Below are positions 2,614 through 34,083 of a DNA stretch of 64,000 nucleotides, in pieces. How positions within the stretch are numbered: the stretch's first letter is position 1; each line of letters starts with the position of its first letter. This DNA is from Candidatus Latescibacterota bacterium (GTDB lineage Bacteria > Latescibacterota > UBA2968 > GCA-2709665). A program made the translations under genes and the position numbers. The notes beneath the pieces were generated by a model that was given only the letters and a program-made list of their open reading frames with translations, was not told where the DNA came from and searched no databases. Location of the stretch: assembly GCA_963662665.2 (NCBI GenBank), contig CAXXJS010000005.1, forward strand, positions 1 through 64,000, given 5' to 3'.

Positions 2614-2650
2614 GTCTCAATCCCTATTCTGATGGATAATTCTCACCGGT
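2614..2650 (-). repeat. Solitary degenerate CRISPR repeat
   Basis: gtctcaatccctattctgatggataattctcaccggt, 28/37 identical to the main array repeat, same orientation. Confidence 0.75.
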
Positions 2651-7517: not shown

Positions 7518-7525
<8 letters not shown>

Positions 7526-10473: not shown

Positions 10474-10499
10474 AAAAAAGCGGCAATTGGACCGCTTTT
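10474..10499 (-). terminator. Intrinsic terminator closing the mini-array transcript
   Basis: Minus strand aaaagcggt-ccaatt-gccgctttttt, about 12 nt after the last mini-array repeat. Confidence 0.7.
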
Positions 10500-10511
10500 C
10501 CACGGCCTCGT

Positions 10512-10693
10512 GTTTCAATCCATGTTCTGATGGAAAATTCCCGGCCAGAGAATATAAGCCTTCCGTCCCGATTCCGAAAATGGTGTTTCAACTCTTATTC
10601 CAATGGAAGTCTCTCACGGGACACCGACTGCCGGTCACCGGCCACTGCCTCTATGAGTTTTACTCCTCGTTCTGATGGAAGTATCCCAACGGG
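10512..10693 (-). CRISPR. Degenerate CRISPR mini-array (3 repeats, 2 spacers of 36 nt)
   Basis: Repeats at 10512-10548 (30/37 to consensus), 10585-10620 (36 nt, diverged) and 10657-10693 (32/37); spacers at 10549-10584 and 10621-10656. Confidence 0.9.
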
Positions 10694-10706
10694 TGTTCCC
10701 GACCGA

Positions 10707-10994
10707 TTAGTCGGTATCCAATTCGCGTTTCAGGTCGGCGATCCACCGTTCGGTCTCGGCCCAGTGGGCGAGCTGTTCGCGGGTGGGCACGGGCAGGTTG
10801 GCCTTTTCGTAGTCCGCATCGGTAAACGGTCGGCCGTCCGGGTGCCAGCATTGGAAGGCGGCGGGGTCCTGGCGATTCTTAACGTGTTCAGACATATCGA
10901 ATTTCATTCCTTGCTGTGATGGAAGATGTCCAACGAATCGAGCCGTCGACGATCTCTCCGTCCTGGTCTGTGTTTTGGCCCGGGCACTGCTCAT
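10707..10994 (-). CDS. Small hypothetical protein directly upstream of the mini-array
   Basis: ATGA overlap with the upstream gene; contains WHPDGRPFTDADYEKANLPVPTREQLAHW; stop is 13 nt before the first repeat. Confidence 0.7.
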   Translation of the reverse strand: MSSARAKTQTRTERSSTARFVGHLPSQQGMKFDMSEHVKNRQDPAAFQCWHPDGRPFTDADYEKANLPVPTREQLAHWAETERWIADLKRELDTD

Positions 10995-11542
10995 TTATCT
11001 TCCCGGATCCTGGCCAGCGCCTCGCTCGCGGCGTCTGCGATTGAACCCGGAGAATCCTTGAGATTCTCGTGTATCCATTCGAGATACCTCACCGCCCGCC
11101 GCTCCCGGAATTCGCCGAGTTGCCGGATGATGGTCTCCCCCAGACCGGCGCCTATAGGATACCTGTCCCTGGACATATGCTCGAAGAGGCTATCGAGCAG
11201 ATTCAACAGGTGTTGGCGAATCTCTTCCGAATCGGGTGAGGGTTTCCAGACGTAGCGCGGGTTTTCCTCGCTCACCAGAACGTCGGGTTGACCGGGCCGG
11301 ATCTGCCGTTCCTCTTCCCAGCCGCCATGGCGCATCACCGGCCCGATGGGGACGGGATCGCGATCGGGCCGGCGGTGTGGATGGTTCGCACAATAGGTGT
11401 AGAACGGGTCCTCTATCGCGATGTCCCTGATCTCGCACCAGGGCGGTATGCTCGAATCCGCGTGCAGCAACCAGTCGCGCTCGCCCTTGTTCTTTCTGTT
11501 GAACCAGCAGGTTCCGCAACAGTCGGATCCTCCATTCGGCAT
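10991..11542 (-). CDS. Hypothetical protein with Cys-rich N-terminus and helical (HEAT-like) C-terminus
   Basis: DCCGTCWFN...WCEIR...YCANHPH; C-terminal QLGEFRERRAV...AASEALARI; GGAGG RBS. Confidence 0.8.
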   Translation of the reverse strand: MPNGGSDCCGTCWFNRKNKGERDWLLHADSSIPPWCEIRDIAIEDPFYTYCANHPHRRPDRDPVPIGPVMRHGGWEEERQIRPGQPDVLVSEENPRYVWKPSPDSEEIRQHLLNLLDSLFEHMSRDRYPIGAGLGETIIRQLGEFRERRAVRYLEWIHENLKDSPGSIADAASEALARIREDK

Positions 11543-11666
11543 CGCTCAGCCCTCCGCCCTGCGGTACCTTCGCAACCCCTCCCGCAACCGGTCTTGCAGT
11601 ATCGTTCGCACCGTCACATCGTTCGATCCAGTTGGAATCCTTCGCCAGTCAAAACATAAAGTGCAT

Positions 11667-11687
11667 TTGTCGCAAGTATTGCGACAA
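11667..11687. promoter_or_regulatory. Palindromic operator TTGTCGCA-N5-TGCGACAA (putative WYL-regulator site)
   Basis: Perfect 8-bp arms in AT-rich DNA upstream of the 11542 operon; identical arms at 41734-41754. Confidence 0.7.
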
Positions 11688-17949: not shown

Positions 17950-18695
17950 AGCTTTCCCCCCCTACGACAGCGTGCGGTTTCCCGAAATTGCTGCAAAGTG
18001 AAGAGTCGGCAAAGTCAACAGTTCCATTCCTGTCGCGGTCCCCAACAAGGCATGGAGCGCCATCCGGAGAACAGATCACACTTCGACAAGTGTTTCATCA
18101 ATGTGAATGCTCGCGAAGGGATTCAATCCTTGTTCTGATGGAAGAGTCCCAACGGGCTGCTCCTGTATCTGGACGGCGCGGCCGTAGATCCGGAGTTTCA
18201 ATCCTTGTTCTGATGGAAGAGTCCCAACGGGCTGTTTTCTTTGGTGTCATGTTCGCAGCTACACACTATGTTTCAATCCTTGTTCTGATGGAAGAGTCCC
18301 AACGGGCTTCGGAACAGTACGTCTATGTGTCGTTTGCATTGTGGTTTCAATCCTTGTTCTGATGGAAGAGTCCCAACGGGAGTGCTACTGCGATGCAATC
18401 GAAGATGAGATTTACGACGAATGGTTCGAGTTTCAATCCTTGTTCTGATGGAAGAGTCCCAACGGGTTGGCGCCCTTGATGATCCGGTGGGATGCCTGCA
18501 GGTTAGTTTCAATCCTTGTTCTGATGGAAGAGTCCCAACGGGCCTCGTACGTCGTGGCATTGTTATAGCCCATCCTTTTCGTTTCAATCCTTGTTCTGAT
18601 GGAAGAGTCCCAACGGGCCCTACGTGCCAATTTAGAGTGAGACAACTCCCCCTCCGGGATTAATGTCGTACATTGGGCGGAGAGGAGAGCACGAG

Positions 18696-19163
18696 ATGAG
18701 GTCAAGAGTCGATGTTGGAGACAACGGCAGCAAGGGGTCTCTGGTTGTGGAGGTCCCGCGCGGGACCTCCACAACCACGAGGCCGGATCCGGAGGTGCCG
18801 GCGCGTGCGAAGCGTCGCCGGTTCACTTCGCGGTACAAGCTTCGCATTCTGGAAGAGGCGGAGGCTTGCCGGGCCCCTGGTGAAGTAGGCGCGCTACTGC
18901 GCCGCGAAGGGTTGTATTCCTCGCAGTTGACCCAGTGGCGTCGTGCGCGTCGCGAGGGGTCGCTCAAGGCGCTATCCAAGTCGCGGGGACCCAAGGGACG
19001 TCGCCGCGACGAGGTCGCCGTCGAGAACGAGCAACTGCGCAAGGAAAACGCCCGTTTGCGTCGACGGCTGGAGCAGGCGAACACGATCCTCGAGATCCAA
19101 AAAAAAGCCTCCGAGATCCTGGGCATCCCCCTGAACCGTCCGCCAAGCGACGACGACGTATGA
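18696..19163 (+). CDS. IS3 transposase OrfA
   Basis: KRRRFTSRYKLRIL...LLRREGLYSSQLTQWR; A-run near 19099. Confidence 0.85.
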   Translation: MRSRVDVGDNGSKGSLVVEVPRGTSTTTRPDPEVPARAKRRRFTSRYKLRILEEAEACRAPGEVGALLRREGLYSSQLTQWRRARREGSLKALSKSRGPKGRRRDEVAVENEQLRKENARLRRRLEQANTILEIQKKASEILGIPLNRPPSDDDV

Positions 19164-20173
19164 TGCGTGCGGCAGAACAACTGGCCCCGAAGGTCGGGTT
19201 GGCGGGGGCGTGCCGGGCCTTGGGTGTGGCGCGTGCGTCGGTCCACCGTGCGCGTAAACCATCGCGATGCGGTCCTCGTGGCGCGCGCCCCTCGTCGCCA
19301 CGTGCGCTTTCCCAAACCGAGCGCGCTGCCGTGCTGGACATCCTGCACGAGGAGCGCTTCTCAGACCGGGCCCCAGCGGCAGTCTACGCCGCGTTGCTGG
19401 AGGAAGGACGGTATCTCTGCTCGATCCGCACGATGTATCGGGTACTGCACGACGCAGGGGAGGTGCGCCAGCGGCGACACCAGCGGCGTCATCCACGTCT
19501 CGAACCACCCCGGTTGATGGCCAGTGCGCCCAACCAGGTCTGGACGTGGGATATCACGCGTCTGCCAGGACCCCGCAAGTGGGTGACCTATCCCCTCTAC
19601 GTGGTACTGGATCTGTTCTCCCGCTATGTCGTGGCCTGGATGGTCGCCACAAGGGAGAGCGCCACAAACGCAAAGCGGCTTATTGCCAACGCGTGCCAAA
19701 AGCAGGGCATTCAACCCGAACAGCTGACGCTGCACCAGGACCGCGGCGCACCGATGACGGCCAAGACGTTTTCCCAGTTGCTGATGGATCTCGACATCCT
19801 GGCCAGCTACTCTCGACCCCGCGTTTCCGATGACAACCCGTATTCTGAAAGCCACTTCAAGACGCTCAAATACACGCCATCATACCCCGAGCGCTTCACC
19901 GATCCGCAATAAGCGCGCACCTATTTACAGGCCTTCTTTCCCTGGTACAACACACAACACCGTCACAGCGGCCTGGGCTTACTCACGCCCGACACTGTCC
20001 ACTATGGGTTGACACAGCAGATTCAAGCCGTCAGACAAACGGTGCTGGACCAGGCTTATCATAAACACCCTGAACGATTTGTTAAGGGGCATCCTCGTCC
20101 GCCAAGCGTTCCGGACGAAGTGTGGATAAACCAACCCGCGAATACCATCGAATGCCATCAGTTACTTCACTAA
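19160..20173 (+). pseudogene. IS3 transposase OrfB (DDE) with premature TAA at 19910-19912
   Basis: PNQVWTWDIT, LDLFSRYVV, HQDRG, DNPYSESHFKTLK; frame continues WYNTQHRHSGLGLLTP after the stop. Confidence 0.85.
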
Positions 20174-20534
20174 ATTCCAACGGGCGTTGTCTCATTTCTA
20201 TTGACACGTTCCGGGGTATGATGTTCACGCCGTAGTAGAAGCCCGTCTCGATGTTTCAATCCTTGTTCTGATGGAAGAGTCCCAACGGGCCAACAGGGTG
20301 CAGGCCTGGTCCTCCCCGAACTCGTCTATGTTTCAATCCTTGTTCTGATGGAAGAGTCCCAACGGGAATTCCTCTAATTCATCGCTGTCAAGGTCTCCAT
20401 CGTGTTTCAATCCTTGTTCTGATGGAAGAGTCCCAACGGGGGCTGGCTATCTTCGCCTGCCGGACGGACCCGTCCTGTTTCAATCCTTGTTCTGATGGAA
20501 GAGTCCCAACGGGCATGGGTATCATGAACCATCC

Positions 20535-21760
20535 TAGTACCCTTTGACGGCTAAAGCACGGCGTAGTCTGGATACAGCTTTCTCAGTTTGATGCGAGCAT
20601 CGTCGGTCGTGAACCGCCAATGGACGGCCTTGCTATTGTTGTTGCGATCATTCGCCCAGGCGGAAGTCTGCTCTTTGAGTGAATCGATATCGGGGATGCG
20701 CTGCTTCAAGCATTGGTTGCTCAAGACACTCAGTTCGATCTCGGCGATGTTGAGCCAACTCCCGTGTTTGGGCGTGTAGTGGATTTCGAGACGCCTGGCC
20801 AGACGGCGAGCTTCTTCGGGTGAGAACGCCTCGTAGAGTGCCGCGGGCGTGTGCGTGTTGAGGTTATCACACACCAGGACGACGGTTTCGGCTTCACGGT
20901 AGTCCGTATCCAGAAGCTCCTTGATCTCCTGGGCCCAGTCCAGTGCGGTCTTGCGTTGCCTTACACGGACCTTGCGCCAGCACGAAAGCGGTTCAGTGAA
21001 CATGAAGTTCACGGCGGTTCCGTTACGTTCATACTCGTAGTCGTAGCGTTCAGGTTTGCCCGGACGTGTAGTGACCGGAACACGCGTCTCCTTGACCAAC
21101 TGAACCGGGTGTTCGTCCATATTGACAACGGGCCTCAGGGCGTCGTACGGCCGCTGATAGACATCCAGGATATCCTCCATCGCGGCGACAAACGCGGCGT
21201 TTTGCTTGGGCGGAATCACCCAGCACGTTCTCAGGTGAGGCCTAAGTTTGTTTTTTTAAGCGTTCGCTGCACCGTCCGGTATGAGATGCTATCGACGATC
21301 TCCAGGGCTACGAGCTCATCGGCCAAAAGCTTCAGCGTCCACCGCTTACGTCCCTTTGGAGGTTCACTGCAAGCCAACGCGATCAATCGGGCTTCCTTAG
21401 CACCATCCAGCTTTCTTTCGGTGGGAGGATGGGCGCGCTTCTTTCGCTCAAGGGCCGAATCCAGGCCCTCCAACACAAAACGCTTCCGGATGCCCTCAAC
21501 CGTAGACCGATTGCACGAAAAGGCCTCCGTGATCTGCCGATCCAGCCAGGCCGGACCCTCTGCATCGGCCTTGAGAAGCACATGCGCGTGCCTGATTCGG
21601 TACGCTTGCGTCTTGCCTTTGCTTACCAGATCCTGCAGCCGTTCCCGTTCTTCGGGACTCAGACGTACGACGTATTTCTTCGGCATGCCGATGGCTCCTT
21701 CGTCTTCAGGGGAGACATCGAACTATAAGCACGCCCAGTCTTAGAAGTCAATAGGTACTA
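20535..21760 (-). mobile_element. IS630-family element (ORFs 21231-21686 and 20551-21219 joined by a frameshift)
   Basis: IRs tagtaccctttgac / gtcaataggtacta; TA target; MDEHPVQL, CDNLNTH, PKHGSWLNIAEIE. Confidence 0.92.
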
Positions 21761-22834
21761 GGAGCCTGTCGGAGTACGTATGGATAAGGGTTTGAATTCA
21801 GTGTCGACAGGCGGAATGAGAGGTGGATGGAGTGCGACGACGAGTTGCGGCAATGTCCTATGCGGGACTGGGAAGCCAGTCATGCCGATAGAGCTTCAGG
21901 AGATTGTGGGTGATGCAGATGAGGGTCCATTCTGCGGTGACTTTATTGATGCCTCTGAAGGTAAAGCGGTCGAAGCGTCGAAGTTGCTTGATCTGTCCAA
22001 ACACGGGCTCCACGATGTGCTTTCGCTTTGCGTAGGTGCATCGCCCTTTGATGGTGCGTAACTTTCTGGCCATTCTTTCCTTGGGCGTTGCGTTTTTGGG
22101 GATGCGGCCGCGTGGAGGCTTGGGATCCGGGTCTGTGTGCTTGTGTTTTTGGGTGGCAATGTAAGCATCGATGCCTTTGGGGAGCTTCTGTATCTCGTGT
22201 TGGTTGTAGTATCCTGAATCCGCGGTTAGGCGTTTTGGATTCTGGCCCGTATGGGTCTTGATCCGCTTGACCATGGATATCGTCTGATTTTTGTCGTTGG
22301 CGTCCTGGGTAACGTCGGCCGCCAGGATGATCTGCGCCTTCTCATCAACGGCAGCCTGACAGTTGTAGGCTTGCAGGAAGGTGCCGCCCGAAAGCATAAT
22401 CCGTGAGTCCGGGTCGGTGAAGTTGCGCTGTTTTTTGGCATCCGGTTCTTTGGAAGGGGGTCTTGGCTTCCTCCCGGGGCGTTTGCGTTGCTCGCGCTTT
22501 TTCAATTTTTCTTCATAGGCCGCCTGTTTGGTGGCATACTCCGCTTGAGCCTCGGCTTCCAGTTCCGCCATCGCCTCGCGGATCTTTTCCAGACGCCCTT
22601 TCCCGAACGCCCAGCCTTCGGCGAGTTCGTCGCCGCGCTTGCCCTTGCCATACTGCGCATCTTCGGCAGCGTCCGTCGCTTCGGCTTGCGCCAGAAGGCG
22701 CTTGACCTCGACCTCAAGTTCTGACGCCTTCTTCTTCATACGTGTCAATGATCGGTGTAAAGGCGCCACCCATGATCGGCTTAAAGGCGCCAGTGAGCGA
22801 GGGTCAAAAGGGGGGTCTCAGACGGGACATGTAA

Positions 22835-23614
22835 TTAGGTTTTAGTGACCTCCTTTGCAAGGGTGATTTTGTGTGGTGTACGTAGGGGACGCGGAGACCG
22901 ATAGCTGTGACCGTCGAGGATGATGCGGTAGGCGGCGTGTCGCAGTCGGTCGAGTGTTGCAGCGCCGAGGAGTCGATTGGAGAAGGCGTTACCCCACTCG
23001 TTGAAGTCGAGGTTGGAGGTGACGATAGTGGCAGCGCGTTCATAGCGTTCGGCGATGAGGTCATGGAAGTCGTCCTCGTGCGGCGGGCTAAGGGGTCGGA
23101 GTCCGAAGTCATCGATGACGAGGAGGGGGACCTTGGCCAGGGCGTGGAAACGGCGATCGAAGGTATGGGTGGCTCTGGCGGCGTGCAGGTGTCCCAACAG
23201 TTTGGTTTGTGTGTAGAAGAGCACATCGTAGCCGTTGCGGACGGCGCAGTGACCTAAGGCCTGGGCGATGTGGCTTTTGCCAGTGCCGCAGGGTCCGGCG
23301 ATGAGGACAGCGACCTTCTCGTGGATGAAGTGGCAGGACGCCAGTTCCTGGATTTGCGTCTGATTGATCTTGGGATTGAAGGAGAAGTCAAAGCCTTCGA
23401 GGGTTTTTTCGTTTCTGAAGCCTGCGCGACGTACTCTGAGGGCGAACTTTTTCTGTTCGCGTCTTGCGACTTCGTCCTGGATGAGTAAGGCGAGGAACTC
23501 AGCATAGGACAACTGTTTTTCGGTGGCCTCGCGGTTTCTTGTCGGCAGGGATTCGACGATGCCGGACAAACGCAGTTGTTTGAGCAAGGGCGCCAGCTCA
23601 GGCATGGGGTTCAT
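22835..23614 (-). CDS. istB: IS21 helper ATPase
   Basis: GPCGTGKSH, LLVIDDFG, TSN, LDRLRH. Confidence 0.95.
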   Translation of the reverse strand: MNPMPELAPLLKQLRLSGIVESLPTRNREATEKQLSYAEFLALLIQDEVARREQKKFALRVRRAGFRNEKTLEGFDFSFNPKINQTQIQELASCHFIHEKVAVLIAGPCGTGKSHIAQALGHCAVRNGYDVLFYTQTKLLGHLHAARATHTFDRRFHALAKVPLLVIDDFGLRPLSPPHEDDFHDLIAERYERAATIVTSNLDFNEWGNAFSNRLLGAATLDRLRHAAYRIILDGHSYRSPRPLRTPHKITLAKEVTKT

Positions 23615-25185
23615 GGCCGTGTCTCCTTGGAATGGGCAGCGTTGTCTATGTGATGGAACAGATCGGTTGTCTCTCTGCAAAAAAGCCCAGCGCCTTTATA
23701 GACGTCAGGCAGCTTATCGGGCGTGTTTGGTGTGTCGGGCTGCTGGTCGAGTCCCCGATCCAGGATGGTTTTGACGGTGCGATACAGGGGACTGTCGAAA
23801 GCCAATGCGCGGGCGCAGGCGGCTTCCAGGCGGGCGGGGCCATAGCGTTTTTCCATCCTGATGACCCCTTGTGCCGCGCGTAGCTTGTCGAGGACCCTGT
23901 CTGCAAAGAGGCACTCGATGAGCTCCCGGCAGGCCGGCCCGATGCGTTTGGCCTGTTTCAAGCACCATTGCGGATCTCGCATCTTGTAGGCCCTGGCGTC
24001 GGGTGGCAGATGGTCATCCACAGTGGAACGGGCGCCGGGATTGTGCAGACGGGAATGGGCGGCCACCAGTTGTTGATCCTTGTAGATCCGGACCGTGGTT
24101 GGTCCTGCCCGCAGCCAGAGGTCGCGGCGCACGAGGCTAAAAGGCACACTGTAGCGGCACTTTTCGAACTGCACGTGGCAGTCGCCGTGTACTTTGACGG
24201 GGGTCCAGGACGCTTCTTCAGGGGGGATATCGGGCAAAGGCGTGAGGAGATGACGCTCGGTTTGCGCAAAGCGGTTCAGCGGCTTTTCCTGCGTGGTGCC
24301 GTGGATGCGGTTGCCGGCGATGGCGAGCACCCATTCTCGAAGTTGTGCATTCGCGTCGGCCACGCTTCGGAAGTCGCGTAGTGGCAGGAAGTTTCTCTTC
24401 ACATATTTGACGCCGGCCTCGACGCGTCCCTTCTTCTTGGGGTCTCGTGGGGGACACGGTGAGATGAGAAAGCCATAGCCTTCGGCGCAGGCGGCGTAAG
24501 CACGCTGCACGCCCGGATCGTAATAACACGCGCGGGTGATGGCGCTCTTGGGGTTATCGATCATCACCCTTTTGGGCACACCAGCGAAGAACTCGAAGGC
24601 GTGGCGGTGGCAAAGCAACCACGTCGCGACCTTCTGGTCGGTGACGAACGCCGCGTATTGGTGACGACTCCAGGCCAAGACCATGACAAAGACCCAGGTC
24701 GAGCAGACCTGGCCCGTATGCACGTCCTGGATGCGTGGACCGGCGCCAAAGTCCACCTGCGCAACATCGCCCGGAGAGAAACCCAGAACCGTCGTGACCC
24801 GCGGATGGGTCTGTTCCAACCCCTGCAGAAAACGGCGGATGGACGAGTAACTGCCGGAAAATCCGTACTTGCAAACAAGCGCCTGGTGGATCGTCGTACC
24901 CTGGATGCCCTGTCGCCACCAGCGGGTGACTTCCTCCCGATACGGGAGCACCAGGGAAACAGCCGCACGGGTCGAAGCCAACTCCAACACTTTCGCAAGC
25001 GTGGCTTCCTCAGGCACGGGTTTGCAAAGGTCCAGAAAACCGTGACGAGCAGCAAGGCGGCGCAGTTGACCCACTTTCTTGCGACCCATCAATCCGGCTT
25101 CGGCAATCGCGCGGTCGGACTGTCCCAACCGCATGCAGACAATCACGTGTCGGTATTCGTGCATCTCGAACCTCCGGTTTGACAT
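23611..25185 (-). CDS. istA: IS21 transposase
   Basis: AQVDFG, LAWSRH, IDNPKS, KGRVEAGVKYVK, RIHGTT. Confidence 0.95.
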   Translation of the reverse strand: MSNRRFEMHEYRHVIVCMRLGQSDRAIAEAGLMGRKKVGQLRRLAARHGFLDLCKPVPEEATLAKVLELASTRAAVSLVLPYREEVTRWWRQGIQGTTIHQALVCKYGFSGSYSSIRRFLQGLEQTHPRVTTVLGFSPGDVAQVDFGAGPRIQDVHTGQVCSTWVFVMVLAWSRHQYAAFVTDQKVATWLLCHRHAFEFFAGVPKRVMIDNPKSAITRACYYDPGVQRAYAACAEGYGFLISPCPPRDPKKKGRVEAGVKYVKRNFLPLRDFRSVADANAQLREWVLAIAGNRIHGTTQEKPLNRFAQTERHLLTPLPDIPPEEASWTPVKVHGDCHVQFEKCRYSVPFSLVRRDLWLRAGPTTVRIYKDQQLVAAHSRLHNPGARSTVDDHLPPDARAYKMRDPQWCLKQAKRIGPACRELIECLFADRVLDKLRAAQGVIRMEKRYGPARLEAACARALAFDSPLYRTVKTILDRGLDQQPDTPNTPDKLPDVYKGAGLFCRETTDLFHHIDNAAHSKETRP

Positions 25186-27883
25186 CTTGTATCCCTCCTG
25201 ACTTGTGCGAATAGTTATCCACTGTGTCGTCAGAAGGTAAACAACGATGAACGGAATGCCCGAGACCCCTTTTCCGGTTACCTCACATGGCGCTATTACG
25301 GCGATCCTCGCGTGGCGCCTTTACGGCGATCCTCACGTGGCGCCATTATGGCGATCCCCAAATGGCTCCATATGACCGATCACTAACAATACGGCCATAG
25401 CTCATCGCTTTGTGCTTCGAAGCGTTCGCCTTGACTTTCGTACCATCCAGCGCCACGTGTCCCAGTTTGACCAGACCACCCTACTGGCAAAGCCCCAGCA
25501 CCTGAGTGAACATGCCCGACAGGGCCTTAAGATGACGCTCTCGAAACGCCGCGATCGTATCGTGATCCGGATGCTGATCCAAACTCAACACGCGGAATGC
25601 CACAGAGTCATACGTGGCACGCTCAATCTTCCGCGAACTTGTGATGCCTTCACAATAGGCAAACAACAGCAGGCCTACCATCATTCTCGGATCGTACGGC
25701 GGTTGGCCACCCTTCGACCCATCATACGACCCATAGATCGACGACAAATCCAGTTGCCCGACGATGTCTAAAATGAAATACGCCTTGTGCTGTTTTGGAA
25801 GCCAGTCCCGTAGATCCGGAGGCAACAGCATCACTTGCTCTGGATGGTATTCACGAAAACGCGTGGGAGTGTCCATCACAACCTCAAGTTTAGGGTCCTT
25901 GTCGACACTCCTATTATACGAAACTTTCGCCCTCTTGGGTACTCCGACAGGCTCCTAGGCACATTAGATCGTTTCAATCCTTGTTCTGATGGAAGAGTCC
26001 CAACGGGAAAGCCTACAGGACCAACACCAGAAGACTTAGACGCAGGTTTCAATCCTTGTTCTGATGGAAGAGTCCCAACGGGTGCGAGATCTGGGTCACA
26101 AGGCTACGCCTGTCCACTAGTTTCAATCCTTGTTCTGATGGAAGAGTCCCAACGGGCGGTAGGGGCACAGACGACAATCTGCCGCAGCTTGTTGAGTTTC
26201 AATCCTTGTTCTGATGGAAGAGTCCCAACGGGCTGGGCGATGATGCGTGGACACCTGACGAGTTGTGGCAGTTTCAATCCTTGTTCTGATGGAAGAGTCC
26301 CAACGGGCTCGCGGACCGTCCCGCCCTGTAGGATGGTCGCTGAAATCCTCACCACATCATGTTTCAATCCTTGTTCTGATGGAAGAGTCCCAACGGGGAG
26401 GGCGCGAACCTGCAGGGGGCGACGTTCGAGGGTATGTTTCAATCCTTGTTCTGATGGAAGAGTCCCAACGGGTCGTTTATTCCTGAACGTGTTCGGAATC
26501 ACGGAACAGGGTTTCAATCCTTGTTCTGATGGAAGAGTCCCAACGGGATCGAAAGGGTTTCCCCGACCACCGGGCCCTCATTTAGTTTCAATCCTTGTTC
26601 TGATGGAAGAGTCCCAACGGGGGCTGTCTACTGTCAGCACCTGGGATTTCCGGCTGAGTTTCAATCCTTGTTCTGATGGAAGAGTCCCAACGGGCCGTCA
26701 AGCCTTGCCCCTGTTCCTCTGTCTGAGATACTGTTTCAATCCTTGTTCTGATGGAAGAGTCCCAACGGGCTACGACAGCCGGAACCTATACCGTTACCTA
26801 TCGCGGTTTCAATCCTTGTTCTGATGGAAGAGTCCCAACGGGGAACCCTGGCCGGACCGGTTGCGGATTTCCTTGCGGTTTCAATCCTTGTTCTGATGGA
26901 AGAGTCCCAACGGGGCGTTGGGCATGTTGTTGGGTTGGGGTGCATATAAGTTTCAATCCTTGTTCTGATGGAAGAGTCCCAACGGGCTTAAGAACTCCAT
27001 CCGCACAACCTCCAATTAATGGTTTCAATCCTTGTTCTGATGGAAGAGTCCCAACGGGGAAACAAGCCCCAACTGCATACACCTTGTCATGGCGTGTTTC
27101 AATCCTTGTTCTGATGGAAGAGTCCCAACGGGAAAAAGACCCTCTTCGTTATTCTCCAACACGCCTTCGTGTTTCAATCCTTGTTCTGATGGAAGAGTCC
27201 CAACGGGCGGGAACCCGCGACACGCAGATGATCGGAAGCTCGTCGTTTCAATCCTTGTTCTGATGGAAGAGTCCCAACGGGCTTCCGGGCATCTGACAGG
27301 TCTTCCAGAACCTTTTCATATTCTTGTTTCAATCCTTGTTCTGATGGAAGAGTCCCAACGGGCACCGGCTGCTGCGTTACCGGGACCTGACCAGCGGGTT
27401 TCAATCCTTGTTCTGATGGAAGAGTCCCAACGGGTGTGGCAGGTGTTCCCGTCCTTTGTCGAGCGGTAAGGGGTTTCAATCCTTGTTCTGATGGAAGAGT
27501 CCCAACGGGCCCACCACGGCTCAAAAGGAATGGCTGGCAGCCTTCCGAGTTTCAATCCTTGTTCTGATGGAAGAGTCCCAACGGGAAATGATTATTCGGA
27601 CTATTGCCAACGCCATAGAATCGTTTCAATCCTTGTTCTGATGGAAGAGTCCCAACGGGAGGGGGGAGATCGGTTGTAAGCCGTGCATGGCAACGCTGTT
27701 TCAATCCTTGTTCTGATGGAAGAGTCCCAACGGGTTCGCGGTTCAGGTTCGCCGACGTCAGGTACAGACAGTGTTTCAATCCTTGTTCTGATGGAAGAGT
27801 CCCAACGGGCTTGCAGGGATGCGGTGGCGACGTCCAGGTTGTTTGCGTTTCAATCCTTGTTCTGATGGAAGAGTCCCAACGGG

Positions 27884-28054: not shown

Positions 28055-28651
28055 TTAGACGCAGATATTTCTGTAACAACAGTCCCCACACTTGGCGCGA
28101 TGAGGCGTCTTTTTGGGCAGTCGTCCGGTCCGAATAATGTCGAGGATTTCAGATACAGCAGTCTTTGCAGTGGTTTCCTCGGCTTCTCCGATGGGCACTT
28201 CGACCAGCCGGCTACCACCCCGCACGTAGGCGATGTAACCACGTGTTACCGGTTTTTGATAAGCTTCGCGGGTCAGGAGCCCATAGAGAGTAATTTGGAT
28301 TCGATGGGTTTTGAAAGCGTTCTCTCGATAGGGCGTATACTTGTAATCGAGCGGTGCAAACGTCCCATCGTGCAATGCCAAGACCTCATCGACGACTCCT
28401 CGAACGCCTAGCTCGGGTGACGCCATATATACGTTGAGATCTCTATTTACCACGCCGATCTTTTTTCGCAAGTAGGATTGATTTTCCCGTTCCCTGCGTC
28501 TGTGGACCTCCCGTCCCTTGAGCACCTTGAAGCGCCGGTCTTCAAACTGCGGGATGTTGAGCACGTTCATGAAATATGTGAAACGAGGACAGTATACGTG
28601 CTCGATCACCTCGGACGGCGTGATCATGACTGTTGTTTCGGTGTCGCTCAC
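28055..28651 (-). CDS. cas4: CRISPR-associated exonuclease Cas4
   Basis: YCPR, GVVDEV, PLDYKY, QITLY, C-terminal CGDCCYRNIC Fe-S cysteines. Confidence 0.95.
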   Translation of the reverse strand: MSDTETTVMITPSEVIEHVYCPRFTYFMNVLNIPQFEDRRFKVLKGREVHRRRERENQSYLRKKIGVVNRDLNVYMASPELGVRGVVDEVLALHDGTFAPLDYKYTPYRENAFKTHRIQITLYGLLTREAYQKPVTRGYIAYVRGGSRLVEVPIGEAEETTAKTAVSEILDIIRTGRLPKKTPHRAKCGDCCYRNICV

Positions 28652-28953
28652 AGGAATAGACTCTTTACGTCGTCGGTAACCAGTTTCTGGTCGAATGCCT
28701 GTCCTTGAAGTACAACTTTACCGAAATCCATCGCACACATGGGGAAAATGTACACCCGGTCGGTTTCCTCATCTATGTGTTCCTCTATACGCATCGACAG
28801 TTCGTCGAGTCGGTTGTGCTTTACTGTGCCGAGAAAGACGGATTTTTGAACTCGATAGAGGCCGGCTTCTTGACAGGCTTTGCCCACCTTCCGCCGGCAT
28901 TTGTCGTCTGAGATGTCGTAGAGAACCCAGGTGAGAGATTCGTCGGATTTCAT
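28648..28953 (-). CDS. cas2: Cas2
   Basis: WVLYDISDD...RVQKSVFLG. Confidence 0.96.
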   Translation of the reverse strand: MKSDESLTWVLYDISDDKCRRKVGKACQEAGLYRVQKSVFLGTVKHNRLDELSMRIEEHIDEETDRVYIFPMCAMDFGKVVLQGQAFDQKLVTDDVKSLFL

Positions 28954-29948
28954 GTTGCCATCTCTTGTGTGTTCGGCTCGTTCGCAATCAGTTCATTGGC
29001 GATGCGGTGCAGGTCGAATTGTATGCTGTCGCGTCGAGTGATGTTCCTGCCGCGGTAGCGAATGGCCTCGTCGAGAAACGCCGTGAACGCTTCAATGAGG
29101 ACGGCCTTGCCAGGCTTGTTCAGAGTGAGTCCGTTCTGCAATTTGTCGAACAGGTCTTTTTTAATTTTGCGCGCAGAAAATAGCGCAAGCACGGTCTCGT
29201 CCGCCCAAATCCGGTATTGCTCGATGAGATCAAATACAAGGGAGGGTTTATTGTAGTGATCGGTATGAACAAAGCCTATGTATGGATCGAGTCCCGCAAG
29301 TAAACATGCTCGTTCGACCGCCCCGTACAGGACGCCATAGGCATAATTGAGCAGGCAGTTGAACGGGTCCTTTGCCGGATTTCGGCTCCGGCCTTCAAAC
29401 CTGTAGTGAGTTGGCAGAAGCAGAGAAACTGCCGCCCAGTAGGTTCGCCCCGCACGACCCTCCAGGCCGAGAAGGGTCTGGCGTGCGGCACCAACATTAC
29501 CTGTGACGTCCTGCGTCTGCTCCTTCAATGTCTTGAGGCTGTCGATGGCTTCGGTAAGTTGCGCCGACAACCGCGTCCGACGTTTGCGCATTTTCGTCAA
29601 CAGCGCGATCTGGTTATCAAATTTGCGCTCGACCCAACCGTGGGCGAGTTGCCTGCCGATGTCGGTTTCTGCTGCCGCAAATTGCATCCGCCGTATGGCG
29701 GTGGTCGAACCCGGTCGACCGTGCCAAACCCGACCAAACGGATCGCCGTATTTATCCAGAAACAGAATATCGATATTCTTCTCTGTCGCCAATTGGACAG
29801 CGTCTGTAGAAAAAGCGGCACCTGTAGTTATCAGAATGGACTGGACCTTGCGGGCAGAGACTTCCGAAACCTTGCCATCTGCTCTGATATGGAAGAGTTC
29901 GCCGCGCCGTTGGAGGTAGGCTCCGTAGGTGTTGATGACGAGTTGCAT
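28950..29948 (-). CDS. cas1: Cas1
   Basis: LLGLEGRAGRTYW, FNCLLNYAYGVLY, GLDPYIGFVH, SLVFDLIEQYR. Confidence 0.97.
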   Translation of the reverse strand: MQLVINTYGAYLQRRGELFHIRADGKVSEVSARKVQSILITTGAAFSTDAVQLATEKNIDILFLDKYGDPFGRVWHGRPGSTTAIRRMQFAAAETDIGRQLAHGWVERKFDNQIALLTKMRKRRTRLSAQLTEAIDSLKTLKEQTQDVTGNVGAARQTLLGLEGRAGRTYWAAVSLLLPTHYRFEGRSRNPAKDPFNCLLNYAYGVLYGAVERACLLAGLDPYIGFVHTDHYNKPSLVFDLIEQYRIWADETVLALFSARKIKKDLFDKLQNGLTLNKPGKAVLIEAFTAFLDEAIRYRGRNITRRDSIQFDLHRIANELIANEPNTQEMAT

Positions 29949-29969
29949 TGGAAGTCCTAGGAGATCAGG

Positions 29970-32387: not shown

Positions 32388-33100
32388 ACGGTCCCCTCTT
32401 CCGGTATGTCTAGAAACGCCCATCTGTCCGCATCCGAAGCCTCGACGGGCGTAAACGTAATTGGCCTCCCCTGCACTTCATAGATCAGGCTAATTGATCC
32501 CTCAAAACGGCGATTCCCAAGATGTTCGTACAGAACCCCTCCCACGCGGGCATATTCGTCTTCCTCTTGAGGCCTTAGCCGGGAGATCGCCTTACTCGGA
32601 ACTACAGATACGCAGGTCGTATCCTCGTGCTCTTCTAGCTTCAATGACTTAACTGCGGTATCTGGATAGGCGGCATAAAAAACAGGAAATGTCAAACAAT
32701 ACGCGCTTCCCAGATATGTGTGATAGTGGCTGTGTCCTTCTTGGAGTCGGCTTTCCAGTTCCTCCTGTAAAGGTCCCTGATAATAGACTCGATAATGTGG
32801 ATTCACCACGATCTCAATGGCCGTTGGTCGGTTGAAGTCCGATCCGCCGCCAACCCAGCCCTTTCCAAGCATACTCATTTCGTGTGCTACCGTGCGGACC
32901 GGCCGCAGGAGCCGGATACCACAGCGCGGAGATTCTGGCAGCGACTCAAGGCCGAGAATCGAAGCAATCAGACCGTGAAGTGCCGTCCGCGTGATAAAGG
33001 GGTAGCTAGCGTGCGTTCCGAGGGTATCTGGACGCCGATAATGGGCCAAACCGCTGCGTAATTCAAACGCCAGTACACTCATTTCGGACATATTGGGCAC
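32375..33100 (-). CDS. cas5: Cas5
   Basis: LAHYRRPDT...SYPFITRTALHGLIASILG; TYLGSAYC. Confidence 0.9.
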   Translation of the reverse strand: MPNMSEMSVLAFELRSGLAHYRRPDTLGTHASYPFITRTALHGLIASILGLESLPESPRCGIRLLRPVRTVAHEMSMLGKGWVGGGSDFNRPTAIEIVVNPHYRVYYQGPLQEELESRLQEGHSHYHTYLGSAYCLTFPVFYAAYPDTAVKSLKLEEHEDTTCVSVVPSKAISRLRPQEEDEYARVGGVLYEHLGNRRFEGSISLIYEVQGRPITFTPVEASDADRWAFLDIPEEGTVCLW

Positions 33101-33102
33101 TC

Positions 33103-34071
33103 CTACATGTTCATTGCTTCGCCGGGGAGGTCTCCGATACCTTGAAGTCCAAGGTGTTGCCAGAGTCGAATACGCTCGATTTTTCCCTCGTTTGCATTCA
33201 ACGTCTCAGCCAATCTTTCTACATTCAGCTTAATTTCTACTAGTGAAGACGGAGGTCGTTCTCCCAGCCAAGCATCTCGTCCAGGCTCAATCTGTACCCT
33301 TTCTTCCAGAAACCCGATCCGGTCAAAAGGATCTTTATATTCAACGTGAATTAACAATAAAGGCTGCTGAATCCCCCTCCCGCGCGCCTGTCGGTTGATC
33401 GTACCCTTCCAGAGTCCTTCGAGAAGCACCTCAACATCATCTTCGCTCATCCTAGTATCCCCTGCAATCTGCGCGTTTATCACACCAGGCATGGCGAACG
33501 TAGCAAACGGCAGAGTATAAGTCGTCCAGATCGTACCTTGGCTCTTGCCCTCTTCTTCGCCTTCGTCGGTGATTTCGGTATCCCTTGACGGCATAACGAC
33601 GGTTCCTTGGACGTACTTAGTTTCTACTGGATGAAGTGAGTGTGCCCAACCAAACTGGACGGGACCCACCTGATGAAAGCTCTTCTTTTTCACGCTAAAA
33701 ACCGCCCCAAAAACGCGCATGTCGAAGGCCGAGGTAAGCAACGCATCCCGAAGGTCTTCCGCCTCTTCACGTTCTGCCCTTTCAAGGATTGTTGTTGCCA
33801 GCTTCTCTCTGCCTAGCAACCTGTTTCCATCCGTCCGCTCCTCCCGGCAGAAAACAAACATCGAACTGTTTTCACCGCCGTCTGGGTAGCGAGCCAAAAC
33901 ATAATCCCTCACATCCCGCTTGATACTGACATCCGACAACGAAATCCGCCCGTCTTCCTCACCGAAAATCCGTCGTGCATCGCTGTCGCGCAGGGGATCG
34001 CGATTGGGAATGCCGTCTTTCACGCATTTTACGAAGAGGATTTCGCCGCTTCGAATCGAATTTCCGTTCAT
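33103..34071 (-). CDS. cas7: Cas7 (Csh2/Csd2-like)
   Basis: PNRDP, SDVSIKRDVRDY, FDMRVFGAVF, GPVQFG. Confidence 0.92.
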   Translation of the reverse strand: MNGNSIRSGEILFVKCVKDGIPNRDPLRDSDARRIFGEEDGRISLSDVSIKRDVRDYVLARYPDGGENSSMFVFCREERTDGNRLLGREKLATTILERAEREEAEDLRDALLTSAFDMRVFGAVFSVKKKSFHQVGPVQFGWAHSLHPVETKYVQGTVVMPSRDTEITDEGEEEGKSQGTIWTTYTLPFATFAMPGVINAQIAGDTRMSEDDVEVLLEGLWKGTINRQARGRGIQQPLLLIHVEYKDPFDRIGFLEERVQIEPGRDAWLGERPPSSLVEIKLNVERLAETLNANEGKIERIRLWQHLGLQGIGDLPGEAMNM

Positions 34072-34083
34072 TTTTCATATCTC

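What the first reader, a model, noticed from the sequence alone, without database searches (positions are those of the whole stretch)
10474..11542. Self-contained operon: Cys-rich gene, small gene, degenerate mini-array, terminator
Seen: ATGA coupling of the two genes; array starts 13 nt after the stop; three differently diverged repeats with two exact 36-nt spacers; terminator 12 nt later; no AT-rich leader. The 3' handle is retained on the minus strand (attgaaac, gttgaaac, gtaaaac). Inference: a maintained, non-adaptive guide cassette processed by the nearby Cas6, not just a decayed array tail. The main array's trailer repeat has only one mismatch.
Basis: partly seen in the sequence, partly recalled or inferred. 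Interest (0 to 1): 0.8.

Follow-up and report, generated by a model that had tools for sequence, protein, structure and literature searches.

The report
CRISPR repeats welded onto small genes
Behind a bacterial CRISPR array sits a small operon in which worn-down CRISPR repeats bracket a tiny conserved gene and two fossil spacers, a layout that recurs across the genus, even in relatives without CRISPR genes.

Summary
The three degenerate repeats, the two 35/36-nt spacers and the closing hairpin are real. The gene model is not. A fourth degenerate repeat (10937-10901, minus strand) ends 5 nt before an in-frame ATG at 10895, so the small gene is 62 aa and the ATGA overlap belongs to a spurious 5' extension.

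The unit repeat-small gene-repeat recurs 15 times in 11 genomes of the genus, always with a 2-5 nt gap to the ATG. Its repeats keep 83% identity over their 3' 25 nt where synonymous sites are saturated. Five of the 15 units lie in genomes where I found no Cas1, Cas6 or Cas7.

The mini-array itself is vertically inherited. It is found in 3 of 15 genomes plus one decayed copy, and only this genome has cas genes. It diverges at about the synonymous rate, and I found no target in host, phage, plasmid or viral collections.

My reading: it is a fossil array tail colonised by repeat-bounded genes, with a selected repeat-derived 5' element on the small gene. A working guide cassette is possible but unsupported. 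No RNA data exist, so Cas6b processing is untested.

The parts
11617..11687 (-). Promoter/operator region of the operon. It is a paralogue of the WYL regulator gene's own promoter and holds the 9-bp-arm palindrome at 11667-11687.
   Evidence: BLAST of 11543-11870 hits 41688-41754 at 79% over 71 nt, and the same place in G006. Alignment A1 shows the shared palindrome and 5' UTR block. The scan reports the palindrome as a stem. Function as an operator is inferred.
10991..11542 (-). Cys-rich gene, 183 aa. It has an invariant N-terminus with clustered Cys/His and a helical HEAT-like C-terminal half.
   Evidence: ORF. No Pfam, NCBIfam, PHROG or PADLOC family. 1416 homologues at E<=0.001. Alignment A2. 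AF2 mean pLDDT 66.7, with residues 1-65 below 50. Atlas neighbours include HEAT_2 clusters at scores of 0.92 or less.
10901..10937 (-). psiR0: fourth degenerate repeat, ending 5 nt before the small gene's ATG.
   Evidence: 9 mismatches to the array repeat. Found by the repeat finder D1 and by nhmmer, E 3.8e-05 genome-wide with a model that includes it. Orthologous and paralogous copies precede all 15 small-gene units.
10707..10895 (-). Small gene, 62 aa. It is acidic, with a conserved W-H-P-D-G core and a long C-terminal helix.
   Evidence: Start defined by homologues. Median dN/dS 0.26 over 68 pairs. AF2 pLDDT 78. No fold match at E<=0.001 in PDB or BFVD.
10657..10693 (-). psiRa: first mini-array repeat (5 mismatches; last 8 nt AGTAAAAC).
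10622..10656 (-). psiS1: 35-nt fossil spacer.
   Evidence: 25/35 identical in G004. No target found.
10585..10621 (-). psiRb: second repeat (11 mismatches ungapped; last 8 nt GTTGAAAC).
   Evidence: Identical in G006.
10549..10584 (-). psiS2: 36-nt fossil spacer. Its 3' two-thirds are conserved in G004 and in a second copy in L114.
   Evidence: 29/36 identical in G004. L114 1677-1756 is 80% identical. The only seed matches are TTC plus 8-9 nt at 39365(-) and 39869(+).
10512..10548 (-). psiRc: third repeat (7 mismatches; last 8 nt ATTGAAAC, as in the array).
   Evidence: 31/37 identical in G004.
10474..10501 (-). Hairpin with T-run: the probable terminator of the operon, and perhaps of the ancestral array.
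   Evidence: -16.8 kcal/mol, z -2.77. Not called by the consensus scan. Conserved in G006 only.
2614..2650 (-). Terminal solitary repeat next to the conserved 225-aa gene. It marks the far end of the repeat-bearing island.
   Evidence: 9 mismatches. Orthologous solitary repeats lie by the same gene in G011, G012 and G013.
18120..27883 (-). Type I-B CRISPR array: 37 repeats in three pieces (18120-18617, 20253-20513, 25971-27883), split by IS elements.
28055..36860 (-). cas6b-cas8b-cas7-cas5-cas3-cas1-cas2-cas4 operon.
   Evidence: Pfam. G+C 0.45-0.55 against about 0.6 around it.
40731..41702 (-). WYL-domain regulator gene. Its promoter is duplicated in front of the Cys-rich operon.
   Evidence: Pfam HTH_11, WYL and WCX

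Best explanation
The stretch is the far end of a tract of CRISPR-repeat-derived units that runs downstream of the type I-B array and is conserved across the genus.

Layout, on the minus strand: Cys-rich gene, psiR0, 62-aa gene, psiRa, psiS1, psiRb, psiS2, psiRc, hairpin.

Promoter: the operon has its own promoter, a duplicate of the promoter and operator of the neighbouring WYL regulator gene. I infer that it belongs to that regulator's regulon.

Mini-array: the three-repeat mini-array is most likely the fossil trailer end of an ancestral array. It has been separated from the live array by genes that now sit between repeats. It no longer acquires spacers and drifts at about the neutral rate. 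It may still yield two crRNA-like RNAs in this genome, which has a matching Cas6b and Cascade, but these have no recognisable target.

Selected element: the part under selection is the repeat unit fused 2-5 nt upstream of the small gene's ATG. It acts in cis as the 5' element of that cistron. Its conservation does not depend on which CRISPR system the genome holds, or on whether it holds any.

Where Cas6b is present, a cut 8 nt before the repeat's end would have two effects. It would remove the AAGGA motif, and it would leave the AUG 10-13 nt from a crRNA-type 5' handle, so expression of the small gene could be tied to Cas6b/Cascade.

Shown: the anatomy, the conservation, the coding status and the distribution. 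Inferred: transcription, any cleavage, and the direction of any regulation.
For: Anatomy.

Own promoter: the paralogue of the WYL promoter. A multi-copy hairpin element follows the upstream gene.

Conservation of the operon: the Cys-rich gene is in 11 of 14 other genomes of the genus and in 0 of 46 outside it among the 61 genomes searched.

Repeat-gene fusion:
- There are 15 small-gene units in 11 genomes, all 15 with a 2-5 nt gap.
- In 98 of 105 unit pairs synonymous sites are saturated (mean identity 0.30). In those pairs the repeats keep 76% identity over 37 nt and 83% over the 3' 25 nt. Median dN/dS is 0.26.
- The flanks of the unit differ between contexts, while repeat-gene-repeat is kept.
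- Tandem paralogue units with 217-246 nt spacing occur in G010.

Other genes start 0-5 nt after a solitary repeat: DUF6361/PADLOC ZacA, a PEMT/ICMT-type methyltransferase, Nmad3, a TylF-like fragment and a 70-aa ORF. In all, 24 of 72 solitary repeats have such a start, against 8.5 +/- 2.7 at random positions (maximum 17 in 1000 trials). Sixteen of the 24 are the small-gene family.

Independence from cas:
- Five units lie in G002, G006 and G008, and the mini-array lies in G004. Those genomes have no match to Cas1, Cas_Cas6_C, Cas6b_C or Cas_Cas7.
- The arrays of G007, G010 and G013 use a different, hairpin-type repeat, yet their solitary repeats are of the window's type.

Fossil status of the mini-array: (59-84% against 66% at four-fold sites). 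No targets were found.

Assembly support: Logan contigs of two other runs cover 9400-11540 and 11765-18151 with 0 differences.
Against: No transcript data exist, so co-transcription, termination and any Cas6b cut are unshown.

The mini-array's flanks are much less alike between G000 and G004 (33% and 43%) than its elements. Spacer 2 and repeat c reach 81-84%, and the core of spacer 2 recurs in a second copy in L114. Some constraint on spacer 2 is therefore not excluded.

Two TTC-flanked 8-9-nt seed matches of spacer 2 lie within 600 bp of each other in the long non-coding stretch between the cas-side genes and the WYL gene. There are 17 such sites genome-wide. This hints at a target.

The AAGGA motif lies 9-12 nt from the ATG, which is longer than the 5-6 nt seen at other genes of this organism. 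Its role as a ribosome-binding site is therefore doubtful.

The units are related to each other, so the counts are not independent. Gene conversion among repeats could mimic selection within a genome.

The absence of cas rests on four Pfam families and two proteins, in genomes that are 95-97% complete.
Confidence: 0.5

Rival explanations
1. Working crRNA-like guide cassette (CreA/CreR-type). Cas6b cuts the operon transcript at the degenerate repeats. Cascade loaded with psiS1 or psiS2 binds a partly matching, PAM-flanked promoter and represses it without cleavage. Induction would come through the WYL-type promoter.
For: Degenerate repeats with retained handles and no leader. This matches what is described for ectopic repeats (PMC9458426, passages; bioRxiv 10.1101/2023.03.03.530964, passages).

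The spacers are inherited across species.

Spacer 2 has two TTC + ACCAT.TT sites at 39365(-) and 39869(+). One lies about 100 nt upstream of the first gene on the cas side, and the other just after a TATAAT-like box. TTC is the PAM reported for haloarchaeal I-B CreTA.

Spacer 2 and repeat c are the best conserved elements.
Against: The seeds are only 8-9 nt, and the rest of the spacer does not match (14/36). The one 12-nt TTC match lies inside a membrane-protein gene.

The seed of spacer 2 differs between G000/G006 and G004, while its 3' part is kept. That is the reverse of what a seed-driven guide predicts.

Three of the 4 genomes with the mini-array or its remnant lack cas genes.

I found no repeat-like unit near cas6b, where I-B regulatory mini-arrays are reported to lie.

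Overall divergence is near neutral.
Confidence: 0.2
2. Pure relic. All the degenerate repeats are decaying leftovers of an old array into which genes were inserted. The repeat before the small gene survives only because it happens to carry that gene's translation start region, and Cas proteins play no part anywhere.
For: The units persist in cas-less genomes and beside arrays with another repeat type.

Some gene-proximal repeats have mutated their last 8 nt into a stronger GAGAGGA-type motif in front of the DUF6361 gene.

The mini-array drifts neutrally.

IS elements and a group II intron fragment show that the tract is an insertion hotspot.
Against: The constraint covers the whole 3' 25 nt (83% identity), not just an AAGGA motif, and extends to repeats downstream of the gene.

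The AAGGA-to-ATG distance is long for a ribosome-binding site.

No conserved RNA fold explains the constraint.
Confidence: 0.2
3. Anti-CRISPR-type operon of an integrated mobile element. The small acidic protein would be an Acr-like inhibitor, and the flanking solitary repeats would be RNA anti-CRISPRs (Racr) that soak up Cas6/Cas7. The element would have entered by recombination at an array repeat.
For: A small gene followed 1-15 nt later by a solitary repeat in one operon mirrors the acr-racr bicistron described for type I-C, where the gap is 11 nt (PMC10651486, passages).

The units occur irrespective of the host's cas content.

The island carries a ParA-like gene, IS elements and an intron fragment.
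Against: The small gene has no relative in the collections searched: 0 in phages, 0 in plasmids, 0 of 17 pattern hits confirmed in viral contigs, and no PHROG family. It has no fold match to a solved Acr at a meaningful score; AcrIF25 scores E 6.1.

The tract sits at one chromosomal site across the genus and always in the array's orientation.

Phages of these uncultured hosts are poorly sampled, so the blanks are weak evidence.
Confidence: 0.1

Closest known systems
CreA/CreR and other crRNA-like mini-arrays of type I systems (Cheng et al. 2022, PMC9458426; Shmakov et al. 2023, bioRxiv 10.1101/2023.03.03.530964; CreR preprint 10.1101/2023.03.10.532045, abstract only)
   Same: Ectopic, strongly degenerate repeats flank spacer-sized inserts. 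There is no leader and no spacer turnover. The last 8 nt (the handle) are largely kept. The system is type I-B.
   Different: This locus has three repeats; Shmakov et al. report only 12 mini-arrays with three or more repeats. It lies 25 kb from cas6b rather than inside or beside the cas operon. It sits at the 3' end of a protein-coding operon. I found no promoter target with a seed of 10 nt or more. It is also kept in relatives without cas genes.
Solitary repeat units / RNA anti-CRISPRs next to acr genes (Camara-Wilpert et al. 2023, PMC10651486)
   Same: Single repeat mimics sit within a few nucleotides of a small protein gene in the same transcription unit, and they occur in genomes with a different CRISPR type or none.
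   Different: Here they are chromosomal, at one conserved site, and always in the array's orientation. They are fused to the START of the gene with a fixed 2-5 nt gap. I found no copy in phage, plasmid or viral collections.
Degenerate terminal repeats and conserved trailer-end spacers of ordinary CRISPR arrays (general knowledge, recalled)
   Same: Old spacers shared between related genomes, degraded repeats, no leader, and an end-of-array terminator.
   Different: The tail is 7.4 kb from the live array and is separated from it by same-strand genes, several of which are themselves bounded by repeats. It has its own promoter.
Integron gene-cassette arrays (analogy only, recalled)
   Same: Same-orientation, tightly packed and mostly promoterless genes, each bounded by a short conserved repeat. 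The content differs between species at one chromosomal site, and cassettes are duplicated in tandem.
   Different: There is no integrase and no attC-type site. The bounding unit is a CRISPR repeat. No mobilising enzyme is identified, and movement of the units is inferred only from their differing flanks.

Membership tests
Ordinary (adaptive) CRISPR array | Three or more direct repeats at a regular period with spacer-sized inserts | tested here: met
   Repeats start at 10512, 10585 and 10657. Spacing is 73 and 72 nt, with inserts of 36 and 35 nt.
Ordinary (adaptive) CRISPR array | Near-identical repeats and an AT-rich leader | tested here: not met
   5, 11 and 7 mismatches out of 37. The small gene's stop codon lies 13 nt upstream.
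Ordinary (adaptive) CRISPR array | Spacer content varies between close relatives | tested here: not met
   The same two spacers occur in G006 (98%) and G004 (76%). A strain contig with 40 differences in 1685 nt has no gaps.
crRNA-like regulatory mini-array (CreA / CreR / crlRNA) | Degenerate repeats flanking a spacer-like insert, with the handle-forming end retained | tested here: met
   The last 8 nt read AGTAAAAC, GTTGAAAC and ATTGAAAC.
crRNA-like regulatory mini-array (CreA / CreR / crlRNA) | Spacer partly complementary, from the PAM-proximal end, to a promoter of a cas, toxin or cargo gene | tested here: inconclusive
   The best matches are two TTC + 8-9 nt sites at 39365(-) and 39869(+). 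No seed of 10 nt or more lies in any non-coding region of the genome. One 12-nt match lies inside a gene. The PAM of this system is unknown.
crRNA-like regulatory mini-array (CreA / CreR / crlRNA) | Co-occurs with, and sits in or beside, the cognate cas operon in related genomes | tested here: not met
   It lies 25 kb from cas6b. Of the 4 genomes with the mini-array or its remnant, only G000 has Cas1, Cas6b and Cas7.
crRNA-like regulatory mini-array (CreA / CreR / crlRNA) | Cas6 processing and effector-dependent repression | not testable with these tools
   No RNA run was listed. This needs bench work.
RNA anti-CRISPR (Racr) / viral solitary repeat unit | Solitary mimic of a CRISPR repeat outside an array | tested here: met
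   10937-10901, 2650-2614 and C47:9054-9018.
RNA anti-CRISPR (Racr) / viral solitary repeat unit | Carried by a virus, provirus or plasmid | tested here: not met
   There is no relative of the adjoining small gene in phages, plasmids or viral contigs. The tract lies at one conserved chromosomal site. The collections sample these hosts poorly.
Type I-B CRISPR-Cas system (context) | cas6b, cas8b, cas7, cas5, cas3, cas1, cas2 and cas4 next to an array | tested here: met
   Pfam Cas6b_N/C, Cas_TM1802, Cas_Cas7, Cas_Cas5d, Cas3 HD/helicase, Cas1, Cas2 and Cas4. The array is shown.
Intrinsic terminator | Stable G+C-containing hairpin followed by a T-run | tested here: inconclusive
   -16.8 kcal/mol, z -2.77. 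The T-run forms part of the stem, and the consensus scan did not list it.

The most novel reading that the evidence does not exclude
The tail of this CRISPR locus works as a gene-cassette platform. Whole genes occupy spacer positions between repeat-derived units: the 62-aa gene family, a DUF6361/ZacA defence-candidate gene, methyltransferases and Nmad3. The units are shuffled and duplicated by recombination at the repeats. The repeat fused to each start codon makes expression of the cassette answer to Cas6b/Cascade, because a cut mRNA begins with a crRNA handle 2-5 nt before its AUG. That would be a post-transcriptional counterpart of the CRISPR-repressed toxin modules, and a way for a host to sense loss or inhibition of its Cas proteins.
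Probability: 0.15. Interest if true: 0.85.

Novelty: new variant of a known kind. Interest (0 to 1): 0.6.

Why it matters
Ectopic CRISPR repeats are known as guides for gene regulation (CreA, CreR, scaRNA) and as viral decoys (Racr). Here a repeat-derived unit is fused to the start codon of protein-coding genes at a fixed distance. It has been kept under constraint over a divergence that has saturated synonymous sites, and it survives both loss and replacement of the CRISPR system.

If the unit is a Cas6b/Cascade-responsive switch, this would be a new way of wiring host genes to the state of the immune system. If it is Cas-independent, it shows how array debris is recycled into gene-expression signals.

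In either case it warns annotators in two ways. A degenerate 'mini-array' next to a cas locus can be an inherited fossil. And small genes can hide between repeats under a wrongly extended ORF.

Tried and rejected
Targets of the psi-spacers. The window-wide and genome-wide seed scans gave only short matches. A first scan was far too permissive and its output was cut. The 12-nt TTC match at C32:81505 lies inside a 505-aa membrane-protein gene and I rejected it as chance. The psi-spacers of G006 and G004, scanned against their own 20-kb loci, gave nothing above 8 nt.

Phage, plasmid and viral searches. The main array against phages gave no match. The psi-spacer block against phages gave none, and against plasmids gave one hit at E 0.9. 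Two exact 20-mers in viral contigs gave 0.

Expression. No RNA holder was listed. The laid runs were contigs only, so nothing can be said about transcripts or ends. That table was truncated, and I could not see which positions of the mini-array differ in run X8.

Function of the two proteins.
- Pfam, NCBIfam, PHROGs and PADLOC were all empty for both.
- The ESM Atlas gave no usable hit for the small protein and only 'hypothetical'/HEAT-like neighbours for the Cys-rich one.
- The fold search of the small protein found nothing at E<=0.001.
- The Cys-rich model was too poor in its N-terminal half to search.

Is the Cys-rich family CRISPR-linked elsewhere? In 80 loci from many phyla, small-gene homologues appear only in the 5 loci of this genus (L024, L027, L028, L030, L031). 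Only 3 loci had array-like k-mer runs, which I did not examine further. Clustering of neighbouring genes showed only lineage-specific synteny.

Other blanks. There is no conserved RNA structure over the repeat plus the gene start (-0.92 kcal/mol), and the repeats themselves are unstructured. Rfam found only a group II intron fragment. The peak of read depth at 11577-11887 is a short multi-copy hairpin element at 11755-11814, not part of the operon. A sigma-70-type promoter inside psiS2 (TATATT box) has a poor -35 and was not called, so I dropped it.

Literature. Searches for genes flanked by CRISPR repeats or Cas6 processing of host mRNAs found no description of repeat-start-codon fusions. These were 'CRISPR', 'solitary repeat', 'Cas6'; 'CRISPR array', 'flanked by CRISPR repeats', 'gene'; 'Cas6', 'mRNA processing', 'repeat-like', 'non-CRISPR', 'host mRNA'; at least 3 terms. 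These are word searches of open-access text, and the supplements of the papers read were closed and may list such cases.

Full report
CONTEXT. The window is contig C5:1-64000 of a 4.86-Mb, 66-contig genome that is 92% complete. On the minus strand lies a complete type I-B operon: cas6b 36860-36162, then cas8b, cas7, cas5, cas3, cas1, cas2 and cas4, ending at 28055 (Pfam). Its G+C is lower than that of its surroundings. It is followed by a CRISPR array of 37 copies of a 37-nt repeat. The array is read on the minus strand and its repeats end in ATTGAAAC. It is split into three pieces (27883-25971, 20513-20253, 18617-18120) by IS21-, IS4/5-, IS630- and rve-type transposase genes. Downstream, still on the minus strand, lie Nmad3, a ParA-like ATPase, a 192-aa protein, an EEP-family nuclease/phosphatase, a truncated Nmad3 beside a group II intron fragment, DUF4432, and then the finding. 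Beyond it lie methionine-synthase and MTHFR genes.

THE OBSERVATION. The three degenerate repeats (5, 11 and 7 mismatches), the 35- and 36-nt inserts, the retained last 8 nt, the 13-nt gap after the stop codon and the hairpin 10501-10474 are all there. The hairpin folds at -16.8 kcal/mol, z -2.77. A genome-wide scan at 12 mismatches or fewer finds only six degenerate copies outside the arrays, all in one orientation, so the repeats are not chance. The consensus terminator scan did not list the hairpin, because its T-run is part of the stem.

It lies inside the 95-aa ORF and ends 5 nt before an in-frame ATG at 10895. Three lines of evidence show that the gene starts there:
- Homologues in the protein collection are called at 58-64 aa in 7 of 9 clusters.
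- In relatives the upstream extension is in another frame, or starts with TTG, and carries a 2-nt indel.
- All 15 related units start 2-5 nt after the repeat.

The ATGA 'coupling' is therefore an accident of an over-long ORF. The operon reads: Cys-rich gene (11542-10991), psiR0, 62-aa gene (10895-10707), psiRa, psiS1, psiRb, psiS2, psiRc, hairpin.

ITS OWN PROMOTER. The region upstream of the Cys-rich gene (11617-11687) is 79% identical over 71 nt to the region around the start of the WYL-domain regulator gene at 41688-41754. The same holds in G006. The alignment shows three shared features: a 9-bp-arm palindrome, a block of the 5' UTR, and even the remains of the regulator's first codons. I infer that the operon is driven by a duplicate of the regulator's autoregulated promoter. 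This is an inference from sequence only. The upstream DUF4432 gene is followed by a short hairpin element present in more than 30 copies in the genome. That element explains the depth peak and the contig breaks at 11542-11765 in public assemblies. 'Self-contained operon' is thus a fair description.

COMPARATIVE ANATOMY. The Cys-rich gene is present in 11 of the 14 other genomes of the genus (81-91% identity) and in none of the 46 more distant relatives searched. Beyond those, the family is large (1416 proteins at E<=0.001) and occurs in many phyla (225 confirmed stretches). Outside the genus it is not accompanied by the small gene, and only 3 of 80 loci show any array-like k-mer run. It is therefore not a CRISPR-associated family as such. 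It matches no Pfam, NCBIfam, PHROG or PADLOC model. Its invariant N-terminus with clustered Cys/His was not modelled with confidence, and its C-terminal half is helical.

Within the genus, the tract between the WYL gene and a conserved 225-aa gene varies in content. It always carries solitary repeat-like units in the orientation of the genes.

The small gene is always bracketed by repeats:
- There are 15 units in 11 genomes, with a gap of 2-5 nt to the ATG in all 15.
- A further repeat follows 1-40 nt after the stop.
- The sequences flanking the unit are unrelated in different contexts.
- G010 has four or five paralogous units in tandem at 217-246 nt spacing, and G001 has three units.

The gene is protein-coding, with a median dN/dS of 0.26 over 68 pairs. 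In 98 of 105 unit pairs the synonymous sites are saturated (mean identity 0.30), while the preceding repeats stay 76% identical overall, 83% over the 3' 25 nt and 63% over the 5' 12 nt. That is purifying selection, or concerted evolution, on the repeat.

Other genes also begin 0-5 nt after a solitary repeat:
- a DUF6361 protein that matches the PADLOC model ZacA at 1.8e-95 (3 cases)
- a PEMT/ICMT-type membrane methyltransferase (2 cases)
- Nmad3 in G013
- a TylF-like methyltransferase fragment on contig C47 of this genome
- a 70-aa ORF.

In all, 24 of 72 solitary repeats have such a start, against 8.5 +/- 2.7 for random positions in the same loci and strands (maximum 17 in 1000 trials). Sixteen of the 24 are the small-gene family, so the count is not one of independent events.

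INDEPENDENCE FROM CAS GENES.
- A relative of the window's Cas6b is found in 3 of 15 genomes: G000, G005 and G009.
- Cas1 is found in 10 of 15.
- G002, G003, G004, G006 and G008 have no match to Cas1, Cas_Cas6_C, Cas6b_C or Cas_Cas7. G002 and G008 are single-contig genomes, 97% complete.
- Even so, G002, G006 and G008 keep repeat-small-gene units, and G004 keeps the mini-array.
- The arrays of G007, G010 and G013 use a different, hairpin-forming repeat that shares only its last 10 nt with the window's repeat. G001 uses a third kind. Their solitary repeats are still of the window's type and are nearly perfect in G010.
- Neither Cas6 family was found in G001, G007, G010, G011 or G013.

So whatever keeps the repeat in front of the small gene does not require Cas6b, at least not in most lineages.

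THE MINI-ARCHAIC ARRAY. By BLAST, the block psiS1-psiRb-psiS2 is found in 3 of 15 genomes: G000, G006 (98%) and G004 (76%). A decayed copy follows one small-gene unit in G008. A metagenome contig of the G006 lineage has it too, 1.7 kb further from the small gene and with a second, diverged copy of psiS2-psiRc. The spacers are thus inherited, not acquired.

Between G000 and G004 the identities are:

| Element | Identical / total |
|---|---|
| psiRa | 22/37 |
| psiS1 | 25/35 |
| psiRb | 25/37 |
| psiS2 | 29/36 |
| psiRc | 31/37 |
| Four-fold degenerate sites of the Cys-rich gene | 44/67 (66%) |
| Flank on one side of the mini-array | 9/27 |
| Flank on the other side | 18/42 |

. The mini-array therefore evolves at about the synonymous rate, with at most a mild excess of conservation in psiS2 and psiRc. 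Only G000 among its holders has cas genes.

I found no target:
- Nothing turned up in phages, plasmids or viral contigs.
- In the genome, no PAM-flanked seed longer than 9 nt lies in non-coding DNA.
- The one 12-nt match is inside a gene.

The only lead is a pair of TTC + ACCAT.TT sites at 39365(-) and 39869(+), in the 960-bp non-coding stretch between the cas-side genes and a PemK-type toxin-antitoxin pair. They are 2 of 17 such sites genome-wide. The most economical reading is that the mini-array plus hairpin is the old trailer end of the array, now stranded behind genes that occupy spacer positions.

MECHANISM. Three things are shown: a conserved repeat-derived unit abuts the small gene's ATG, the gene is under purifying selection, and the arrangement persists without cas genes.

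The following is inferred. The unit is a cis-acting 5' element of the cistron. In this genome, which has a matching Cas6b, a cut 8 nt before the repeat's end would remove the AAGGA motif. It would leave an mRNA that begins with a crRNA-type handle and has its AUG 10-13 nt from the 5' end, inside the stretch that Cas5 and Cas7 would cover on a crRNA. (This last point rests on general knowledge of type I complexes, which I recall rather than tested.) Whether that would silence, stabilise or activate the message cannot be told from sequence.

The AAGGA lies 9-12 nt from the ATG. That is further than the 5-6 nt seen at the WYL and EEP genes, so its role as a ribosome-binding site is uncertain. No conserved RNA fold was found.

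COMPARISON WITH WHAT IS KNOWN. Ectopic degenerate repeats that make regulatory crRNA-like RNAs are described in three sources:
- CreA, in PMC9458426 (passages read).
- Mini-arrays, in bioRxiv 10.1101/2023.03.03.530964 (passages read).
- CreR, in a preprint of which I saw the abstract only.

The Shmakov preprint reports three points that bear on this locus. Mini-arrays are mostly of two repeats, with only 12 cases of three or more. Type I-B repeat-like sequences are enriched near cas6. Mini-arrays close to type III arrays are probably degraded repeats. Solitary repeat units next to acr genes, including an acr-racr bicistron with an 11-nt gap, are described for mobile elements (PMC10651486, passages read).

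This locus shares features with each, but fails the target and cas-linkage tests for the first kind and the mobile-element test for the second. My word searches found no description of CRISPR repeats fused at a fixed distance to the start codons of host genes. Supplements were closed and may hold such cases.

VERDICT. The sequence features are real, but the gene model and the emphasis need correcting. The mini-array is most likely an inherited fossil. A working guide cassette is not excluded (about 0.2). The unusual and better-supported feature is the selected repeat-start-codon fusion and the repeat-bounded genes in the array's tail.

Caveats:
- The genomes are metagenome-assembled.
- The units are related to each other.
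- The absence of cas rests on a few models.
- There are no RNA data.

Noticed in passing
window 18120-27883: The CRISPR array is interrupted by four transposase-bearing insertions: rve-type 18935-19912, IS630-type 20551-21686, a DDE_Tnp_1 gene at 21858-22769, and an IS21 pair at 22835-25185. These leave array pieces of 7, 4 and 26 repeats.
   Followed up: partly
window 13785-13922 (-): An Rfam group II intron D1-D4-4 fragment (67.7 bits, complete model) lies next to a truncated Nmad3 gene (13089-13754). There is no intron ORF nearby, so it is probably a remnant.
   Followed up: no
window 11755-11814 and more than 30 other places in the genome: A 40-60-nt hairpin-forming element downstream of the DUF4432 gene is multi-copy in the genome (85-97% identity) and occurs in relatives. 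It is REP-like and causes depth peaks and contig breaks in public assemblies.
   Followed up: partly
window 39269-40228: A 960-bp stretch without a convincing ORF lies between a UDG-superfamily-like gene and a PemK/MazF-type toxin-antitoxin pair (40228-40714). It holds a TATAAT-like box at about 39840 and the two short seed matches to psiS2. What is transcribed from it is unknown.
   Followed up: partly
G000 contig C47:9018-9160 (locus L115): A degenerate copy of the hairpin-type repeat used by the arrays of G007, G010 and G013 lies about 50 nt upstream of a solitary repeat of the window's type. That solitary repeat ends 1 nt before the ATG of a TylF-like methyltransferase fragment. Relics of two repeat families sit side by side, away from any array.
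   Followed up: partly
window 3674-10364: In this genome and in G006, the methionine-synthase/MTHFR block lies between the mini-array and the terminal solitary repeat at 2650-2614. In G010, G011, G012 and G013 the conserved 225-aa gene lies within a few kb of the Cys-rich operon, with a terminal solitary repeat between them in G011, G012 and G013. This suggests a rearrangement in the G000/G006 lineage.
   Followed up: no
L019 6500-9440 and L114 1492-3156: In the G006 lineage a 1.7-3.2-kb segment is inserted exactly at the 5' edge of psiRa. It brings a different, better-preserved repeat copy and, in L114, a second diverged psiS2-psiRc unit. This looks like recombination at repeats.
   Followed up: partly
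window 28000-37000: The cas operon has a G+C of 0.45-0.55 against about 0.6 for its flanks, and its Cas6b and Cas7 are only 28-38% identical to those of other genomes of the genus. The cas module here was probably acquired separately from the repeat-bearing tract.
   Followed up: no
Cys-rich family (alignment A2): The first 16 residues and a Cys/His-rich stretch are invariant across 32 sequences that are 55-86% identical to the window's protein; the family's genome records come from many phyla. The family has no Pfam model, and its closest relatives carry sponge-metagenome-type labels. It is an unusually conserved unknown protein and worth a study of its own.
   Followed up: partly
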